NCBI GenBank assembly: GCA_012747475.1 | Contig: GCA_012747475.1_3928.1 | Length of the DNA: 64,000 nucleotides | Reading direction: 5' to 3' (one strand) | From: a phage | Shown here: piece by piece, positions 3,048-8,415 of the stretch | Layout of the letters: every line of letters starts with the position of its first letter | Position numbering within the stretch: position 1 is the stretch's first letter | Made by a program: the position numbers and the translations under genes | The notes under the pieces: generated by a model | Seen by the model: only the letters and a program-made list of their open reading frames with translations | Databases searched by the model: none | What the model was told of the DNA's origin: nothing

Positions 3048-3124
3048 CTCTGTTTAGCTCAGCTTGGTAGAGCGTTCCGTTTGGGGCGGTAAGGCCGGAG
3101 GTTCAAGTCCTCCAACAGAGACCA
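3048..3124 (+). tRNA. tRNA-Pro (anticodon TGG)
   Basis: Acceptor CTCTGTT/AACAGAG, D-arm GCTCAGCTTGGTAGAGC, anticodon loop TTTGGGG, T-arm GGAGG-TTCAAGT-CCTCC, encoded CCA. Confidence 0.7.
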
Positions 3125-3131
3125 AATTAAT

Positions 3132-3209
3132 GTTCCAGTAGACAAAATGGTAAAGTCACCACTCTTTCAAAGTGGATATTTGAGGGTTCAAATCCCTTCT
3201 GGAACGCCA
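3132..3209 (+). tRNA. tRNA-Glu (anticodon TTC)
   Basis: Acceptor GTTCCAG/CTGGAAC, anticodon stem CCACT/AGTGG with loop CTTTCAA, T-loop TTCAAAT, CCA encoded. Confidence 0.7.
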
Positions 3210-3216
3210 GTTTTGA

Positions 3217-3289
3217 CAGAAGACCAATTACAGCAAACTTAATCTTATTCATCTGAAGGTAAATCGGACAAAGAAGAGATTTGGTCTGG
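3217..3289 (+). repeat. conserved stem-flanked intergenic element A (CAGAAGACC...TTACAGCAA ... TTGGTCTGG)
   Basis: Shares 5' motif CAGAAGACCnnTTACAGCAA and a terminal helix (AGACCAA/TTGGTCT) with elements at 3384, 3839 and 3926. Confidence 0.5.
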
Positions 3290-3300
3290 TCATTAAGAAT

Positions 3301-3377
3301 TGCGGGTATAGAGAAAGGGCGTCTCACATGTCTCATTAGCATGGTATCGGCAGGTTCGACTCCTGCACCCGCCTCCA
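3301..3377 (+). tRNA. tRNA with CAT anticodon (Met, fMet or Ile2)
   Basis: T-arm GCAGG-TTCGACT-CCTGC, 3' acceptor ACCCGCC + T + CCA; anticodon stem CATGT/GCATG with loop CTCATTA; position 1:72 mismatch. Confidence 0.5.
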
Positions 3378-3383
3378 AATTTA

Positions 3384-3447
3384 CAGAAGACCGTTTACAG
3401 CAATATTTATTAAATTTTTAGCGGAAAAATTGAAAGATACGGTCTGG
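3384..3447 (+). repeat. conserved stem-flanked intergenic element B
   Basis: CAGAAGACCGTTTACAGCAA at 5' end; terminal helix AGACCGT/ACGGTCT; ends 13 nt before tRNA-Asn. Confidence 0.5.
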
Positions 3448-3460
3448 TAATACTAAACAT

Positions 3461-3537
3461 GGTTAGGAAGCACATAAGGCATGTGCGGTCGCCTGTTAAG
3501 CGAATGGCACAGGGTTCGAATCCCTGACTAACCGCCA
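3461..3537 (+). tRNA. tRNA-Asn (anticodon GTT)
   Basis: Acceptor GGTTAGG/ACTAACC, D-stem GCAC/GTGC, anticodon loop CTGTTAA, T-arm CAGGG-TTCGAAT-CCCTG, G + CCA. Confidence 0.65.
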
Positions 3538-3606
3538 AATTTAGGAGAGAAGCGATTGCTCACCGATTTGTAAGGTGCAAGTCCTTAGCCTGAATAGAAA
3601 TTAAAT

Positions 3607-3694
3607 GTGTCGTTATCCCGTAGATGGTAGCGGTGGGGACTGTAAATCCCTTGTCATTGAGACTCGGTAGGTTCGACTCCTACACGGCACACCA
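3607..3694 (+). tRNA. tRNA-Tyr (anticodon GTA), long variable arm
   Basis: 88 nt; acceptor GTGTCGT/ACGGCAC; anticodon stem GGGGA/TCCCT with loop CTGTAAA; T-arm GTAGG-TTCGACT-CCTAC; A + CCA. Confidence 0.65.
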
Positions 3695-3699
3695 ATAAA

Positions 3700-3777
3700 G
3701 GTTATGTAGTTTAATCTGGTTAAAATACTCCCCTGTCACGGGAGATGATGAGGGTTCAAATCCCTTCGTAACCGCCA
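3700..3777 (+). tRNA. tRNA-Asp (anticodon GTC)
   Basis: Acceptor GGTTATG/CGTAACC, anticodon stem CTCCC/GGGAG with loop CTGTCAC, T-loop TTCAAAT, G + CCA. Confidence 0.7.
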
Positions 3778-3807
3778 ATTTTGAGAGGGCTATTTAGCCC
3801 CTCCCTT

Positions 3808-3831
3808 AAAGGGTTCTTACGAGTATCCTTT
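3808..3831 (+). other. hairpin with conserved 12-nt loop TTCTTACGAGTA (copy 1)
   Basis: Stem AAAGGG/TCCTTT enclosing TTCTTACGAGTA; a second hairpin at 7305..7328 has loop TTCTTACGAGAG; both lie just downstream of a tRNA. Confidence 0.45.
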
Positions 3832-3838
3832 AAAGGAG

Positions 3839-3912
3839 CAGAAGACCAAATACAGCAAGTTACTTAAAATTTCAAGCCAATTTAATTTTGAAAAATTTAA
3901 AACTTGGTCTGG
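3839..3912 (+). repeat. conserved stem-flanked intergenic element C
   Basis: CAGAAGACCAAATACAGCAA at 5' end; terminal helix AGACCAA/TTGGTCT. Confidence 0.5.
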
Positions 3913-7054: not shown

Positions 7055-7062
7055 AGATTTAA

Positions 7063-7138
7063 AGGGGATTAGTTTACAAGGTTAAAACCTCGGTCTTTGA
7101 AATCGAAGAAGTTGGTTCAATTCCAACATCCCCCGCCA
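7063..7138 (+). tRNA. tRNA-Gln (anticodon TTG)
   Basis: Acceptor AGGGGAT/ATCCCCC (A1:C72 mismatch), D-stem GTTT/AAAC, anticodon loop CTTTGAA, perfect T-arm GTTGG-TTCAATT-CCAAC, G + CCA. Confidence 0.65.
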
Positions 7139-7140
7139 AT

Positions 7141-7219
7141 GCTCCATTACTCCAATTGGCAGAGAGGCCAGACTTAAAATCTGTGTTATGTATCGGTTCG
7201 AATCCGATATGGAGTACCA
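7141..7219 (+). tRNA. tRNA-Leu-like (anticodon TAA), short variable arm
   Basis: Acceptor GCTCCAT/ATGGAGT + A + CCA, D-loop CAATTGGCAGAG, anticodon loop CTTAAAA, perfect T-arm ATCGG-TTCGAAT-CCGAT. Confidence 0.55.
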
Positions 7220-7224
7220 AATTT

Positions 7225-7300
7225 AGCGGTATAGCATAACTGGCAATGCAGCAGTCTCTGAAGCTGTCCTATTAAGGTTCAAATCCTTATGCCGCTGCCA
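7225..7300 (+). tRNA. tRNA-Gln (anticodon CTG)
   Basis: Acceptor AGCGGTA/TGCCGCT, D-stem GCAT/ATGC, anticodon stem GCAGT/GCTGT with loop CTCTGAA, perfect T-arm TAAGG-TTCAAAT-CCTTA, G + CCA. Confidence 0.55.
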
Positions 7301-7304
7301 CTTC

Positions 7305-7328
7305 TAAGGATTCTTACGAGAGTCCTTA
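7305..7328 (+). other. hairpin with conserved 12-nt loop TTCTTACGAGAG (copy 2)
   Basis: Stem TAAGGA/TCCTTA; loop shares TTCTTACGAG with hairpin at 3808..3831. Confidence 0.45.
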
Positions 7329-7331
7329 AAT

Positions 7332-7407
7332 GTGGCCTTATCATAAATGGTAATGACCCATGCTGTGAACATGGTCTATACGGGTTCAAATCCCGTAGGT
7401 CACCCCA
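7332..7407 (+). tRNA. tRNA-His (anticodon GTG)
   Basis: Acceptor GTGGCCT/AGGTCAC, perfect anticodon stem CCATG/CATGG with loop CTGTGAA, perfect T-arm ACGGG-TTCAAAT-CCCGT, C + CCA. Confidence 0.7.
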
Positions 7408-7412
7408 ATTTA

Positions 7413-7489
7413 TAGTCCAAGTAGCTTATATGGTTAAAGCGCGTGTCTGAAAAACATGAGAAGAGGGTTCAAATCCCACTGGACTACCA
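7413..7489 (+). tRNA. tRNA-Phe (anticodon GAA)
   Basis: Acceptor TAGTCCA/TGGACTA region, anticodon stem CGTGT/ACATG with loop CTGAAAA, T-loop TTCAAAT, CCA at 3' end (exact acceptor register ambiguous). Confidence 0.6.
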
Positions 7490-7505
7490 ATTTCAAAGGT
7501 GCTTA

Positions 7506-8240
7506 ATGAAAGAGATGACAGAACAAGGTAAGGAGATTTTTAATCTCTTAAAAACTGGTAAAGGGTTTTCTAACCCCCTTATTACTGGTGCAGCAGTTCT
7601 CGGTGGAACCGTAGCTGCCTCCACATCACTTGTAAGCTCTATTAGTTCTGTATCAGACCCTACAGTAAAAGATAAGCTTGTTGCTGCTGGACTTACAACA
7701 GTTCTGCTTAACAGCTTTACCACGAGTCTGGCAAGCACTACATCAACTACCAAAACACTGACAGATTACGGTCAAAAGTCCATTGATGAGTTTTCATCAC
7801 GTATGCAGGTAGCAAAAGGTTATTCTAATGTTATGGGTGCAGCAGGTGAACAAGTTGGCTGTACACCATTTAGTGGTATTATGGGTGTTGCTACAGAGTA
7901 TGGTCAAAAAGCTATTGATACGATTAACAGTGCACTAGATAGTGTTAATGGTGTGTTAAGTGACTTACAAGATGCTATTGACAAAGGTCTTGATACTATT
8001 TCTGATTTAGCTGAGCAAGCTGTTAGTAAGATTAATGAAGGTATTTCAAAAATTACAGCTTATGCAGATGAAGTTGTGCAGATGATTGAAGAAGAAGCTG
8101 CTCTTATTGCAGAGTACCTTAAAACGAATATCAATGGGTTCTTAGCAGGCATCTTACCAGACTGGTTTGATGATGCTTGTAAAACTGGTGTAATTGACAC
8201 TATTGCAACACCAGAAATGAAGAACGCATTACAGAAATAA
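7506..8240 (+). CDS. hypothetical protein
   Basis: ORF 7443..8240 trimmed to the internal ATG at 7506 to avoid overlapping tRNA-Phe; AAAGG SD. Confidence 0.5.
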   Translation: MKEMTEQGKEIFNLLKTGKGFSNPLITGAAVLGGTVAASTSLVSSISSVSDPTVKDKLVAAGLTTVLLNSFTTSLASTTSTTKTLTDYGQKSIDEFSSRMQVAKGYSNVMGAAGEQVGCTPFSGIMGVATEYGQKAIDTINSALDSVNGVLSDLQDAIDKGLDTISDLAEQAVSKINEGISKITAYADEVVQMIEEEAALIAEYLKTNINGFLAGILPDWFDDACKTGVIDTIATPEMKNALQK

Positions 8241-8242
8241 AT

Positions 8243-8335
8243 GGAAGATTAACCCTAAAAGGTAAGGGAGCAGTTTGCTAAACTGCCAGTAGCTGAGAAA
8301 TCGGTGTACCAGTTCAAGTCTGGTATCTTCCTCCA
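8243..8335 (+). tRNA. tRNA-Ser (anticodon GCT), long variable arm
   Basis: 93 nt; perfect acceptor GGAAGAT/ATCTTCC, perfect anticodon stem GCAGT/ACTGC with loop TTGCTAA, T-arm ACCAG-TTCAAGT-CTGGT, T + CCA. Confidence 0.65.
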
Positions 8336-8339
8336 ATTT

Positions 8340-8415
8340 GAATCCGTGACAGAAATGGCTATGTGCCTGTCTGCAAAACAGGTTTATAAGGGTTCGAGTC
8401 CCTTCGGATTCTCCA
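8340..8415 (+). tRNA. tRNA-Cys (anticodon GCA)
   Basis: Perfect acceptor GAATCCG/CGGATTC, perfect anticodon stem CCTGT/ACAGG with loop CTGCAAA, perfect T-arm AAGGG-TTCGAGT-CCCTT, T + CCA. Confidence 0.7.

What the first reader, a model, noticed from the sequence alone, without database searches (positions are those of the whole stretch)
3048..8415. Near-complete phage-encoded tRNA set (about 27 genes) in one 5.4 kb cluster
By manual parsing the anticodons cover all 20 amino acids (Pro, Glu, Met/Ile CAT x2, Asn, Tyr, Asp, Lys x2, Ile, Arg x2, Trp-like, Ser x2, Leu-like x3, Ala, Gly, Thr, Val, Gln x2, His, Phe, Cys). The cluster is interrupted by an HNH endonuclease gene, a membrane-protein gene and another CDS. 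Such a set suggests codon-usage compensation and/or resistance to host anticodon nucleases and tRNA-depleting defences.
Basis: seen in the sequence. Interest (0 to 1): 0.6.

Follow-up and report, generated by a model that had tools for sequence, protein, structure and literature searches.

The report
Felix O1-type phage tRNA operon
This is the known tRNA gene cluster of a Felix O1-like coliphage (25 standard tRNAs plus two odd ones that complete all 20 amino acids); the less ordinary part is that it sits directly behind a Ro60-like gene and holds four candidate partner "Y RNAs" that nobody has annotated.

Summary
The other two are non-canonical: an Arg(UCU)-like gene (4718-4799, Rfam tRNA 31.7 bits) and a Trp(CCA)-like gene (5300-5382). 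Comparative covariation supports the Trp-like gene. The window is a Felixounavirus (97% identical to phages KEP1 and Felix O1), and this cluster was published in 2010, so the finding itself is already known. Codon analysis gives partial support for codon compensation. AGA is ten times commoner in the phage than in E. coli, and all seven U34 tRNAs match A-ending codons that the phage uses more. Anticodon loops give no support for nuclease evasion. Three things are new here. First, the upstream ORF (1467-2882, 98% identical to Bas63 gp130, an experimentally shown anti-Ppl factor) folds as Ro60. Four conserved hairpin modules (3214-4060) lie between the tRNAs, and one has a YrlA-type permuted tRNA-like domain; these are likely its Y RNAs. 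Second, the Trp-like gene belongs to a widespread viral tRNA-Trp class with an 8/4 stem architecture that tRNA finders miss. Third, the aberrant tRNA-Arg is an alternative allele that sometimes carries the HNH gene.

The parts
1398..1427 (+). sigma-70-like promoter upstream of the Ro60-like gene
   Evidence: TTGACA-18-TAAAGT, 10 of 12 matches; consensus match only
1467..2882 (+). Ro60-like protein gene (TROVE-type HEAT ring plus vWA domain with MIDAS motif; Pfam DUF2828+DUF7788); ortholog of Bas63 gp130
   Evidence: Pfam and PHROG hits. AF2 model pLDDT 89. The top 9 Foldseek PDB hits are all Ro60/TROVE, E 2e-8 to 2e-6, over the full length. 98% identical to bas63_0130. DxSxS, T and D residues are invariant.
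2901..3021 (+). two sigma-70-like promoters (2901-2929, 2992-3021) in front of the first tRNA
   Evidence: 10 of 12 matches each
3048..3124 (+). tRNA-Pro(UGG)
   Evidence: ARAGORN; Rfam 57.7 bits
3132..3209 (+). tRNA-Glu(UUC)
3214..3292 (+). Y-RNA-like module 1 (hairpin with invariant CAGAAGAC / GGUCUGG core, 3x1 internal loop, UACAGCAA motif)
3301..3377 (+). tRNA-Met(CAU)-like, atypical (U1xC72 mismatch, R11-Y24, U37)
   Evidence: ARAGORN. Not found by the Rfam tRNA model. T stem covaries in Moogle and L010.
3381..3450 (+). Y-RNA-like module 2
   Evidence: outer stem UUAC/GUAA becomes UUGC/GCAA in phage heid
3461..3537 (+). tRNA-Asn(GUU)
3607..3694 (+). tRNA-Tyr(GUA)
   Evidence: 84-87% identical to tRNA-Tyr of T4-like and T5-like phages
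3700..3777 (+). tRNA-Asp(GUC)
3836..3915 (+). Y-RNA-like module 3
3923..4060 (+). Y-RNA-like module 4, YrlA-type: Ro-type stem enclosing V hairpin 3961-3977, T arm 3982-3998, closed 7-bp acceptor stem 3999-4016 and D arm 4018-4034
   Evidence: the acceptor stem is fully replaced but still paired in Moogle and mistaenkt
4059..4202 (+). long near-perfect hairpin (22-bp base) between module 4 and tRNA-Lys; possible RNase III-type processing site
   Evidence: I3; z -5.3; function inferred only
4207..4282 (+). tRNA-Lys(UUU)
4287..4363 (+). tRNA-Met(CAU), probably elongator
4365..4440 (+). tRNA-Ile(GAU)
4456..4484 (+). internal sigma-70-like promoter (TTGACA-17-TATAGT)
   Evidence: 11 of 12 matches, best in the region
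4718..4799 (+). aberrant tRNA-Arg(UCU)-like gene: 7-bp acceptor, no D arm, intact anticodon arm, 23-nt variable region, T arm, ACCA end
   Evidence: Rfam tRNA 31.7 bits, above the gathering score of 29. Fold. Alternative allele to the canonical tRNA-Arg(UCU) of relatives.
4770..5162 (+). HNH endonuclease ORF (probable true start ATG 4815)
   Evidence: PHROG HNH families. Present in 28 of 123 records that carry the aberrant tRNA; absent from L007 and L009.
5300..5382 (+). non-canonical tRNA-Trp(CCA)-like gene: 8-bp acceptor plus 4-bp T stem, 26-nt D region, C31.A39, G73, CCA end
5396..5485 (+). tRNA-Ser(UGA)
   Evidence: the only one without an encoded CCA
5742..5819 (+). tRNA-Leu(UAG)
5827..5902 (+). 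tRNA-Lys(CUU), an isoacceptor with no host counterpart according to PMC12482277
5908..5983 (+). tRNA-Ala(UGC)
5990..6064 (+). tRNA-Gly(UCC)
6072..6147 (+). tRNA-Thr(UGU)
6243..6317 (+). tRNA-Val(UAC)
6319..6396 (+). tRNA-Leu(CAA)
6402..6477 (+). tRNA-Arg(ACG)
6497..7054 (+). DUF7338 protein gene with hydrophobic N-terminal segments (annotated 'Phage conserved protein' or 'hypothetical protein' in relatives)
   Evidence: Pfam 1.2e-61; phrog_2143; annotations
7063..7138 (+). tRNA-Gln(UUG)
7141..7219 (+). tRNA-Leu(UAA)
7225..7300 (+). tRNA-Gln(CUG)
7332..7407 (+). tRNA-His(GUG)
7414..7489 (+). tRNA-Phe(GAA)
7506..8240 (+). DUF7217 protein gene (the ORF opens at GTG 7443 inside tRNA-Phe; ATG 7506 matches the 735-nt gene annotated in Felix O1)
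   Evidence: Pfam 4.8e-88; annotated 'putative membrane protein' in phage heid
8243..8335 (+). tRNA-Ser(GCU)
8340..8415 (+). tRNA-Cys(GCA)
8581..8598 (+). intrinsic-terminator-like hairpin followed by a T run, after the cluster
   Evidence: consensus match only

Best explanation
The region is the tRNA operon of a Felix O1-like myovirus (Felixounavirus). It lies between a Ro60-like gene and the terminase gene and has its own host-type promoters (about 2901, 2992 and 4456).

Shown: it holds 25 canonical tRNA genes. It also holds a non-canonical tRNA-Trp(CCA) and an aberrant tRNA-Arg(UCU).

Inferred: host RNase P and 3' processing cut the transcript into mature tRNAs. 24 of the 25 canonical genes already encode CCA.

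The anticodon choice is close to a minimal complete decoding set. There is one tRNA per codon box. G34 is used in every two-codon NNY box. U34 is used in all seven four-codon boxes. Extra isoacceptors exist for Leu, Gln, Lys, Arg and Ser.

The most likely function is to keep phage mRNAs translated. These mRNAs are AT-rich and use A- and U-ending codons and AGA, which the host's tRNA pool serves poorly and which becomes limiting as the host is shut down. On this view the set supplements, and late in infection largely replaces, host tRNAs.

The same transcript also carries four hairpin RNAs that share an invariant bulged-helix core. tRNA processing would release them. I infer that they are the Y RNAs of the adjacent Ro60-like protein. 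Its 98%-identical ortholog, Bas63 gp130, is an experimentally shown counter-defence factor. If so, the locus combines translation support with an RNA-surveillance or counter-defence module.
For: Identity of the region:
- 25 tRNAs by ARAGORN, 24 of them confirmed by Rfam, plus the Arg-like gene.
- The region is 97% identical to KEP1 and Felix O1, and 208 records cover at least 80% of it.
- The same gene order is annotated in Felix O1, heid, Moogle, mistaenkt and Bas63.
- A similar anticodon set, differing by a few isoacceptors, occurs in the more distant P778 and L011.
- Published descriptions exist: PMC3185647 (22 tRNAs, 7 proposed to aid translation) and PMC12482277 (Sf14, 26 tRNAs for 19 amino acids).

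Codon use:
- GC3 is 0.32 in the phage and 0.53 in the host.
- RSCU is higher in the phage for GCA, GGA, CTA, CCA, TCA, ACA and GTA (7 of 7), and also for TTA, CAA and AAG.
- AGA is 18.2 per 1000 codons in the phage against 1.8 in the host.

Non-canonical tRNAs:
- In the Trp-like family 9 of 17 pairs show compensatory changes, while the CCA anticodon loop, G73 and the CCA end never vary.
- The aberrant Arg allele occurs in 123 records and shows a G-C to U-A compensatory change in its anticodon stem.

Ro60-like protein and Y RNAs:
- The fold search returns only Ro60/TROVE structures at the top.
- Across the four modules and several genera the stem is 93.5% paired, 6 pairs change on both sides, and 0 of 500 shuffles reach the observed score.
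- The module 4 consensus is V hairpin, T arm, closed acceptor, D arm, with compensatory acceptor pairs.
- The same architecture lies next to homologous genes in L047, and its conserved inner core in L011 and L012, whose outer stems are weak or unclear.
- Permuted tRNA-like elements (T arm, closed acceptor, D arm) lie next to the Ro-like gene in other distant lineages; 5 of the 17 descriptor hits are the Felixounavirus loci themselves, and a few may be tandem tRNAs.
- Orphan T arms number 71 on the gene strand against 9 on the opposite strand.
Against: - Function is inferred. There are no expression, processing or charging data here.
- The global test of codons matched by phage tRNAs against unmatched codons is not significant.
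- The most used Gly codon, GGT (46 per 1000), has no cognate phage tRNA.
- Many encoded tRNAs read codons the host already serves well (GAA, AAA, CGT, CAG).
- In Bas63 the tRNA genes were mostly non-essential on four laboratory E. coli strains (PMC11482910).
- For the Y-RNA part: the core CAGAAGAC is not the published GNCGAA(N)G motif; no Rfam family matches; the strict descriptor finds only one lineage outside the genus; and gp130 alone, on a plasmid or in T7, is enough to counter Ppl, so that phenotype does not need these RNAs.
- The aberrant tRNA-Arg lacks a D arm and may not decode.
Confidence: 0.65

Rival explanations
1. The set exists mainly as a counter-defence. Phage tRNAs would replace host tRNAs that are cleaved or depleted by anticodon nucleases and other tRNA-targeting immune systems. 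The neighbouring Ro60-like/Y-RNA module would belong to the same anti-defence island.
For: - tRNA-Lys(CUU) has no host counterpart (PMC12482277). It could decode AAG if tRNA-Lys(UUU) were cut.
- 13 of 24 comparable anticodon loops differ from the host's.
- The phage tRNA-Tyr is 84-87% identical to tRNA-Tyr of T4-like and T5-like phages rather than being a private gene.
- The gene immediately upstream is 98% identical to an experimentally shown anti-Ppl factor.
- In Salmonella, rsr and the Y RNAs sit in an operon with the RtcB ligase that is induced by damaged tRNAs (abstract of PMC7790460, listed).
- Papers proposing tRNA-based evasion are in the reference list seen (van den Berg 2023; Azam 2023).
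Against: - Anticodon loops of the classic targets (Lys-UUU, Tyr, Asn, Asp, Arg-ACG) are identical to the host's.
- The differences that exist are mostly at positions 32 and 38.
- The Sf14 study of the sister genus explicitly rejected nuclease escape.
- No tRNA-repair gene was looked for or seen in the region.
- Ppl is proposed by those authors to act on DNA, not tRNA.
Confidence: 0.3
2. The cluster is mostly evolutionary baggage. It would be a mosaic built and reshuffled by free-standing HNH homing endonucleases, with tRNA genes hitch-hiking and little selection on the complete set.
For: - The number and position of HNH genes vary: one here, three in Felix O1, two at other sites in mistaenkt.
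- The Arg(UCU) locus exists in three states: canonical, aberrant, and aberrant plus HNH.
- Individual tRNAs are missing in some relatives (Tyr in mistaenkt, Trp-like in Felix O1).
- The tRNAs are mostly non-essential in the laboratory.
Against: - Gene order and anticodon set are conserved across three genera, and the anticodon set is largely kept in relatives whose Ro-like protein is only 47-53% identical.
- There are many compensatory changes in stems.
- The anticodon choice is systematic (U34 in every four-codon box), not random.
Confidence: 0.1
3. Some annotated 'tRNAs' are not decoders but partner RNAs of the Ro60-like protein, as the Bas63 authors suggested. The main candidate is the atypical tRNA-Met at 3301-3377, which is flanked by the 3' strand of module 1 and the 5' strand of module 2. 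If those two strands paired, they would enclose it as in a Yrn1-type Y RNA.
For: - This gene is the only ARAGORN tRNA that the Rfam tRNA model misses.
- It has a U1xC72 mismatch and U37.
- The flanking strands share the complementary core.
- The suggestion appears in PMC11482910.
Against: - The outer and inner stems are specific to each module and covary within a module (UGAC/GUCA, UUAC/GUAA, GAGC/GCUC). Each module therefore closes on itself rather than across the tRNA.
- The 1-72 mismatch and R11-Y24 also fit an initiator-like tRNA.
Confidence: 0.15

Closest known systems
tRNA cluster of Salmonella phage Felix O1 and other Felixounavirus genomes (Whichard et al. 2010, PMC3185647)
   Same: The DNA is 96.8% identical over the whole region. 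The order of tRNA genes is the same, as is the position between the gp130-type gene and the terminase gene.
   Different: Felix O1 was annotated with 22 tRNAs and has three HNH genes in the cluster. This window has one HNH gene and 25 ARAGORN tRNAs. Felix O1 lacks the Trp-like gene.
tRNA set of Shigella phage Sf14 (Mooglevirus; Ross and Doore 2025, PMC12482277)
   Same: Same order and anticodons. That study reports 26 tRNAs for 19 amino acids, describes Lys-CUU as having no host counterpart, and finds largely the same anticodon-loop differences from the host.
   Different: Sf14 has a canonical tRNA-Arg(UCU), whereas this window has the aberrant allele. The Trp-like gene (present in Moogle) was not counted there, which is why the total was 19 amino acids.
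YrlA / YrlB Y RNAs with bacterial Rsr (Ro60) (Chen et al. 2014, PMC4201824)
   Same: - Encoded within about 1.2 kb of a Ro60-type gene and on the same strand.
- The terminal stem contains a conserved bulged helix.
- Module 4 has the YrlA order: V arm, T arm, closed acceptor-like stem, D arm.
- Modules 1-3 resemble the short YrlB type.
   Different: - The protein is a remote structural homolog only (DUF2828; no sequence match to Ro60 in the PDB).
- The core is CAGAAGAC / GGUCUGG, not GNCGAA(N)G.
- There are four copies.
- They are embedded in a tRNA operon.
Thermus phage phiLo Ro60 with Yrl1 and Yrl2 (PMC12135203; PDB 9KOP)
   Same: It is a phage-encoded Ro60-fold protein and the best structural match. 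Two Y-RNA-like genes lie next to it. A counter-defence role was proposed.
   Different: The phiLo Yrls carry the CGAA motif and lie upstream of the gene. No tRNA cluster is described there. Binding was shown experimentally for phiLo, not here.
tRNA clusters of T4-like and T5-like phages
   Same: Clustered tRNA genes on one strand. The tRNA-Tyr and tRNA-Asp genes are detectably related to those of these phages.
   Different: Different gene content and order. From general knowledge, T4 has 8 tRNAs and T5 about two dozen. No Ro60-like gene is known to me next to them; this was not tested here.

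Membership tests
Canonical bacterial-type tRNA (Rfam RF00005 / ARAGORN cloverleaf) | Cloverleaf with 7-bp acceptor, D arm, 5-bp anticodon stem with 7-nt loop, and 5-bp T arm; score above the curated threshold | tested here: met
   25 genes by ARAGORN. 22 reach the RF00005 gathering score, and Ser-UGA and Tyr are found as tRNA-clan hits. tRNA-Met 3301-3377 is found by ARAGORN only.
Canonical bacterial-type tRNA (Rfam RF00005 / ARAGORN cloverleaf) | The same features, applied to the Arg(UCU)-like gene 4718-4799 and the Trp(CCA)-like gene 5300-5382 | tested here: inconclusive
   Arg-like: 31.7 bits, above the gathering score of 29, but it has no D arm and ARAGORN misses it. 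Trp-like: below threshold (23 bits against tRNA-Sec), with an 8/4 stem architecture and a 26-nt D region, but with strong covariation.
Functional (aminoacylated, decoding) tRNA | Transcribed, processed, charged by the cognate synthetase and used on ribosomes | not testable with these tools
   Indirect evidence only: encoded CCA in 24 of 25 genes; G73, the CCA anticodon and a 1-72 pair in the Trp-like gene.
Felixounavirus (Ounavirinae) tRNA operon | Near-identical DNA and the same gene order between the gp130-type gene and the large terminase gene | tested here: met
   Terminase domains are found at 8848-10464.
Ro60 / TROVE protein family | Ring of HEAT-like repeats followed by a vWA domain with a MIDAS motif | tested here: met
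   AF2 pLDDT 89, pTM 0.88. The nine best PDB matches are all Ro60/TROVE, full length, TM 0.40-0.66. Invariant D279, S281, S283, T349 and D381.
Ro60 / TROVE protein family | Sequence membership (Pfam TROVE PF05731 or a significant match to known Ro60 sequences) | tested here: not met
   Pfam gives DUF2828 and DUF7788 only. phmmer and a profile search against PDB sequences find no Ro60. The relationship is structural and remote.
YrlA-type Y RNA | Encoded near a Ro60 ortholog and on the same strand | tested here: met
   The modules lie 332-1178 nt downstream of the stop codon at 2882, on the + strand.
YrlA-type Y RNA | tRNA-like domain in the order V arm, T arm, closed acceptor-like stem, D arm, joined to the terminal stem | tested here: met
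   Module 4 only. T loop UUCGAUU; D loop AAUGGUA.
YrlA-type Y RNA | GNCGAA(N0-1)G motif in the 5' strand of the terminal stem | tested here: not met
   The invariant core is CAGAAGAC. It resembles the CCGAAG of metazoan Y RNAs but is not the bacterial motif.
YrlA-type Y RNA | Bound by the Ro60 ortholog | not testable with these tools
   No binding data. gp130 counters Ppl without these RNAs.
Free-standing HNH homing endonuclease | HNH nuclease domain, and presence/absence polymorphism at a fixed site among close relatives | tested here: met
   PHROG HNH families, best 3.7e-42; Pfam found nothing. The insertion junction is exact to the base. The gene is present in 28 records and absent from others that have the same flanks. 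Cleavage and homing were not tested.

The most novel reading that the evidence does not exclude
The four conserved hairpin RNAs at 3214-4060 are the Y RNAs of a large, sequence-divergent branch of phage Ro60-like proteins (DUF2828). Homologs of this protein are encoded in 710 phage records. Modules 1-3 would be YrlB-like. Module 4 would be a YrlA-like circularly permuted tRNA mimic. They would be produced as by-products of tRNA-operon processing and assemble with the gp130-type anti-defence protein. In addition, the phage would encode a truly complete 20-amino-acid tRNA set, because its tRNA-Trp belongs to an unrecognised 8/4-architecture class that standard tRNA finders miss in many viral genomes.
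Probability: 0.55. Interest if true: 0.6.

Novelty: already known. Interest (0 to 1): 0.4.

Why it matters
The tRNA cluster itself adds nothing new. It has been described for Felix O1 since 2010, and its function was analysed computationally in 2025.

The value is in what lies between and beside the tRNAs:

- **Candidate Y RNAs.** A recent preprint showed that the 98%-identical Bas63 gp130 is a transferable anti-defence factor with a Ro60 fold. It guessed that "some tRNAs" might be its Y RNAs. The four modules defined here, which are annotated as opposite-strand hypothetical ORFs in Bas63, are specific, testable candidates in a tractable model phage.
- **A missed tRNA-Trp.** Published counts of "19 amino acids, no Trp" for this phage subfamily may be an artefact of the tRNA-finding software.
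- **The AGA codon.** AGA is the largest codon mismatch with the host. In this allele it is served only by a D-arm-less tRNA-like gene. This gives a sharp test of whether such an RNA can decode in E. coli.

Tried and rejected
- ARAGORN with lowered thresholds and intron mode added only an implausible "stop-codon tRNA with intron" over the Arg-like gene.
- Rfam with permissive E-values over 3200-4210 gave no Y-RNA or other family for the modules. The weak tmRNA and miRNA hits were treated as noise.
- The single-sequence AlphaFold model of the Ro-like ORF was unusable (pLDDT 44) and was redone with an alignment.
- Sequence and profile searches of PDB sequences found no Ro60.
- I considered that the module strands pair across tRNA-Met (3' strand of module 1 with 5' strand of module 2). 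I rejected this because the stems covary within each module.
- A loose motif search (GAAG...CAGCAA) across 75 distant loci returned mostly hits in coding sequence. A strict structural descriptor found only L047 outside the genus. I therefore claim the motif for a few lineages, not for the whole DUF2828 family.
- My first idea, that the aberrant tRNA-Arg is strictly linked to the HNH gene, was refuted. 123 records carry the aberrant tRNA but only 28 also carry this HNH, and L007 and L009 have the aberrant tRNA without it.
- The global codon test (matched against unmatched codons) was not significant, so I do not claim general codon matching.
- No supplementary tables of Chen et al. 2014 were available. 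I therefore could not check whether any Felix O1-like phage was in their list of 22 phages. Their search was restricted to genomes annotated with a TROVE domain, and this protein is not annotated that way.

Full report

ARAGORN run on the whole 64-kb window returns 25 tRNA genes. All are on the + strand. The first starts at 3048, the last ends at 8415, and there are none elsewhere. Rfam's tRNA model independently finds 22 of them above its gathering score. It finds Ser(UGA) and Tyr as tRNA-clan hits.

The anticodons are Pro UGG, Glu UUC, CAU x2, Asn GUU, Tyr GUA, Asp GUC, Lys UUU and CUU, Ile GAU, Ser UGA and GCU, Leu UAG, CAA and UAA, Ala UGC, Gly UCC, Thr UGU, Val UAC, Arg ACG, Gln UUG and CUG, His GUG, Phe GAA and Cys GCA.

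- The Arg(UCU)-like gene at 4718-4799 passes Rfam's tRNA threshold (31.7 bits against 29). It folds with a 7-bp acceptor stem, a perfect anticodon arm (GCGGU-CUUCUAA-ACCGC) and a T arm. It has no D arm and a 23-nt variable region.
- The Trp(CCA)-like gene at 5300-5382 gets only a weak tRNA-Sec score (23 bits), and ARAGORN misses it at every setting tried.

The three interrupting ORFs exist.

- An HNH endonuclease: ORF 4770-5162, with the true start probably ATG 4815. Its best PHROG HNH match is 3.7e-42.
- A DUF7338 protein with hydrophobic segments at 6497-7054.
- A DUF7217 protein: the ORF opens at 7443 inside tRNA-Phe, and ATG 7506 reproduces the 735-nt gene annotated in Felix O1.

**2. What is it?**

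The region is 97.1% identical to Escherichia phage KEP1 and 96.8% identical to Salmonella phage Felix O1. 399 phage records match, and 208 of them cover at least 80% of the region. The window is therefore a Felixounavirus.

The same order of tRNA genes is annotated in five relatives: Felix O1 (22 tRNAs and three HNH genes), heid, Moogle, mistaenkt and Bas63. In each it lies between a 471-aa "RNA-binding/vWFA" protein gene and the large terminase gene. Two more distant relatives, Yersinia phage P778 and the IMG/VR contig L011, have upstream proteins that are only 53% and 47% identical. They keep a similar anticodon set in a different order.

The cluster was described with the Felix O1 genome in 2010 (PMC3185647). 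Its possible functions were analysed for the sister phage Sf14 in 2025 (PMC12482277). As a finding it is already known.

**3. Anatomy**

Host-type promoter-like sites precede the Ro-like gene (1398-1427) and the first tRNA (2901-2929 and 2992-3021). The best match in the region (11 of 12) lies after tRNA-Ile at 4456-4484. A terminator-like hairpin follows the cluster at 8581-8598. These are consensus matches only.

24 of the 25 canonical genes encode the 3' CCA.

The anticodon choice is systematic. G34 is used in every two-codon NNY box, and U34 in all seven four-codon boxes. There are extra isoacceptors for Leu, Gln, Lys, Arg and Ser. This is close to a minimal complete decoding set.

**4.

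I compared codon use in 67 phage ORFs (17,805 codons) with 58 annotated E. coli K-12 genes.

- GC3 is 0.32 in the phage and 0.53 in the host.
- All seven NNA codons read by the U34 tRNAs have higher RSCU in the phage. Examples are CCA (2.06 against 0.69), TCA (1.71 against 0.64) and ACA (1.44 against 0.52). The same holds for TTA, CAA and AAG.
- The largest mismatch is AGA: 18.2 per 1000 codons in the phage against 1.8 in the host.
- A global comparison of codons matched by phage tRNAs with unmatched codons is not significant (p 0.059, and the medians point the wrong way).
- The most used Gly codon, GGT, has no phage tRNA.

Codon compensation therefore explains part of the set but not its completeness.

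For nuclease evasion, I compared the 7-nt anticodon loops with the host loops tabulated in the Sf14 paper. Eleven are identical and 13 differ, mostly at positions 32 and 38. The classic nuclease targets (Lys-UUU, Tyr, Asn, Asp, Arg-ACG) are identical. That paper rejected nuclease escape. It favoured reliance on phage tRNAs late in infection, after the host genome has been degraded.

In Bas63 the tRNA genes were mostly dispensable on four laboratory strains.

My preferred reading is translation support for AT-rich phage genes as the host pool becomes limiting. Counter-defence is a non-exclusive rival.

**5. The two odd tRNAs**

*Trp-like gene.* The gene is present in heid, Moogle, mistaenkt, several IMG/VR Felixounavirus contigs and the distant L011. 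It is absent from Felix O1 itself.

- Moogle shows double changes that keep the D-like stem paired (CUC/GAG becomes CAC/GUG) and the T stem paired (G-C becomes U-A).
- L011 swaps two acceptor pairs.

A scan of IMG/VR for its anticodon-arm signature returned at least 120 loci. Among 80 loci examined, ARAGORN called 37 tRNA-Trp and missed 42. In these genes the region between the acceptor and anticodon stems is mostly 12 to 27 nt long, with two outliers of about 40 nt. The Felix-type gene groups with a 24-27-nt class.

An RNAalifold consensus of ten members has an 8-bp acceptor stem and a 4-bp T stem. Nine of 17 pairs show compensatory changes. The CCA anticodon loop, G73 and the CCA end never vary. 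I conclude that this is probably a real tRNA-Trp with an unusual architecture. It would explain why this subfamily is reported as lacking Trp.

*Arg-like gene.* Relatives show three states at this locus.

- A canonical tRNA-Arg(UCU) without HNH (L006, L008, Bas63, Moogle; 113 records cover at least 80% of that allele).
- The aberrant gene without HNH (L007, L009).
- The aberrant gene followed by HNH (this window, Felix O1, 28 records).

The aberrant part alone occurs in 123 records. The right-hand junction is exact: the HNH stop codon abuts a sequence shared by all alleles. L009 and L010 carry a G-C to U-A double change in the anticodon stem of the aberrant allele. This hints at selection. Whether a D-arm-less RNA decodes AGA is unknown. 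If it does not, this phage depends on the host's tRNA-Arg(UCU) for its commonest Arg codon. From general knowledge, that host tRNA is a rare, single-copy species.

**6.

The ORF at 1467-2882 matches only DUF2828 and DUF7788 in Pfam. It has no sequence match to solved structures. With a 53-sequence alignment AlphaFold gives pLDDT 89. The nine best Foldseek matches in the PDB are all Ro60/TROVE proteins over the full length. They include the Thermus phage phiLo protein, Xenopus Ro60 and Deinococcus Rsr. Their E-values run from 2e-8 to 2e-6. The vWA MIDAS residues are invariant.

The ORF is 98% identical to Bas63 gp130. A preprint shows that gp130 counters the Ppl defence system, even when moved alone into T7. 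The same preprint describes gp130 as Ro60-like and speculates that some nearby tRNAs are Y RNAs.

Between the tRNAs I find four paralogous hairpins: 3214-3292, 3381-3450, 3836-3915 and 3923-4060. They share three features.

- An invariant core, 5'-CAGAAGAC and GGUCUGG-3'. The core pairs into a helix with a 3x1 internal loop (AGA opposite G).
- A UACAGCAA motif just inside the helix.
- Outer and inner pairs that differ between modules but stay complementary.

On 14 distinct stems from four modules and several genera, 93.5% of cells are paired. Six pairs change on both sides. None of 500 shuffles reaches the observed covariation score, and slid controls collapse. This is the pattern expected of a protein-recognised bulged helix, as in Y RNAs.

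Module 4 also contains a V hairpin, a T arm (GAAGG-UUCGAUU-CCUUC), a closed 7-bp acceptor-like stem and a D arm (GUGU-AAUGGUA-GCAC). This is the order that defines YrlA. In mistaenkt and Moogle the acceptor stem is replaced but still paired. In Moogle it reads ACCCUUC-GCCAAACA-GAAGGGU, which is literally a permuted tRNA with G73 and CCA in the loop.

The architecture also extends beyond the subfamily.

- It lies next to homologous genes in L047 (complete). Its conserved inner core recurs in L011 and L012, though their outer stems are weak or unclear.
- Elements with the order T arm, closed acceptor, D arm lie near the Ro-like gene in other distant lineages. The descriptor gave 17 hits. Five of them are the Felixounavirus loci themselves, and a few may be tandem tRNAs.
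- T-arm hairpins outside called tRNAs number 71 on the gene strand against 9 on the other strand.
- 33 of 80 homolog loci have tRNAs within 6 kb, always on the gene's strand.

Processing of the flanking tRNAs would release these RNAs.

Several caveats apply.

- The core is not the published GNCGAA(N)G motif.
- No Rfam family matches.
- The strict descriptor finds only one lineage outside the genus.
- gp130 counters Ppl without these RNAs.
- Binding is untested.

I put the Y-RNA reading at roughly 0.55-0.65.

**7. Verdict**

Its interest comes from three side results: specific candidate Y RNAs for an experimentally relevant phage Ro60-like protein, a missed class of viral tRNA-Trp, and an alternative tRNA-Arg allele that is sometimes accompanied by an HNH gene.

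Noticed in passing
window 3214-3292, 3381-3450, 3836-3915, 3923-4060: Four paralogous hairpin modules with an invariant CAGAAGAC / GGUCUGG core and covarying flanks. The fourth holds a permuted tRNA-like domain. They are candidate Y RNAs of the adjacent Ro60-like protein. In Bas63 this stretch is annotated as two opposite-strand hypothetical ORFs (bas63_0137 and bas63_0138).
   Followed up: yes
window 1467-2882: The ORF upstream of the cluster has a Ro60/TROVE fold although only DUF2828 and DUF7788 are detectable by sequence. It is 98% identical to Bas63 gp130. Homologs occur in 710 phage records, including Mycobacterium, Vibrio, Listeria, Staphylococcus and Campylobacter phages.
   Followed up: yes
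window 5300-5382; loci L096, L110, L123, L184, L011, L140 and others: A widespread class of viral tRNA-Trp(CCA) genes with C31.A39, an 8-bp acceptor stem, a 4-bp T stem and D regions of unusual length. ARAGORN missed 42 of 80 loci that carry the anticodon-arm signature.
   Followed up: partly
window 4718-5162; loci L006-L010, L207: The tRNA-Arg(UCU) locus is polymorphic in Felixounavirus: canonical tRNA, aberrant D-arm-less tRNA, or aberrant tRNA plus an HNH gene. AGA is the phage's commonest Arg codon.
   Followed up: yes
window 3301-3377: The first tRNA-Met(CAU) is atypical (U1xC72 mismatch, purine 11-pyrimidine 24, U37). It is the only ARAGORN tRNA that the Rfam tRNA model does not find. 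It may be initiator-like, or it may not be a decoder at all.
   Followed up: partly
window 5160-5301: The stretch between the HNH stop codon and the Trp-like gene is more conserved than the tRNAs. About 70 nt are identical in Moogle. It folds into a multi-hairpin structure (z -2.6) that again contains an AGAC...GGUCUG pairing. Its function is unknown.
   Followed up: no
window 4059-4202, 5651-5740, 6152-6238: Three long hairpins lie between tRNA genes (z -5.3, -6.0 and -2.9). The first two have 22- to 26-bp near-perfect stems. They may be RNase III-type processing sites or further small RNAs.
   Followed up: no
window 3809-3833 and 7306-7330: Two copies of a small hairpin with the conserved loop region UCUUACGAG (84% identical, D20; z -4.6 for the second). 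Purpose unknown.
   Followed up: no
window 4485-4717: A non-coding stretch of about 230 nt lies downstream of the strongest promoter-like site (4456-4484). It has several hairpins and weak sub-threshold tmRNA-type Rfam hits. These hits probably arise from the neighbouring tRNA, but the stretch is unexplained.
   Followed up: no
window 3607-3694 and 3700-3777: tRNA-Tyr and tRNA-Asp are 76-87% identical to those of T4-like, T5-like and other large phages of enterobacteria. This suggests a tRNA gene pool shared among phages.
   Followed up: no
loci L017, L018, L029, L035, L063, L085 (IMG/VR): Permuted tRNA-like elements (T arm, then a stem closed by a 3-5-nt loop, then a D arm) lie within about 0.1-3 kb of DUF2828 Ro-like genes in distant phage contigs. 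tRNAs near these genes are always on the gene's strand.
   Followed up: partly
window 3538-3606: A 69-nt insert between tRNA-Asn and tRNA-Tyr is absent from phage heid. It has a T-arm-like sequence and a stable fold (z -2.6). It may be a decayed tRNA remnant.
   Followed up: no
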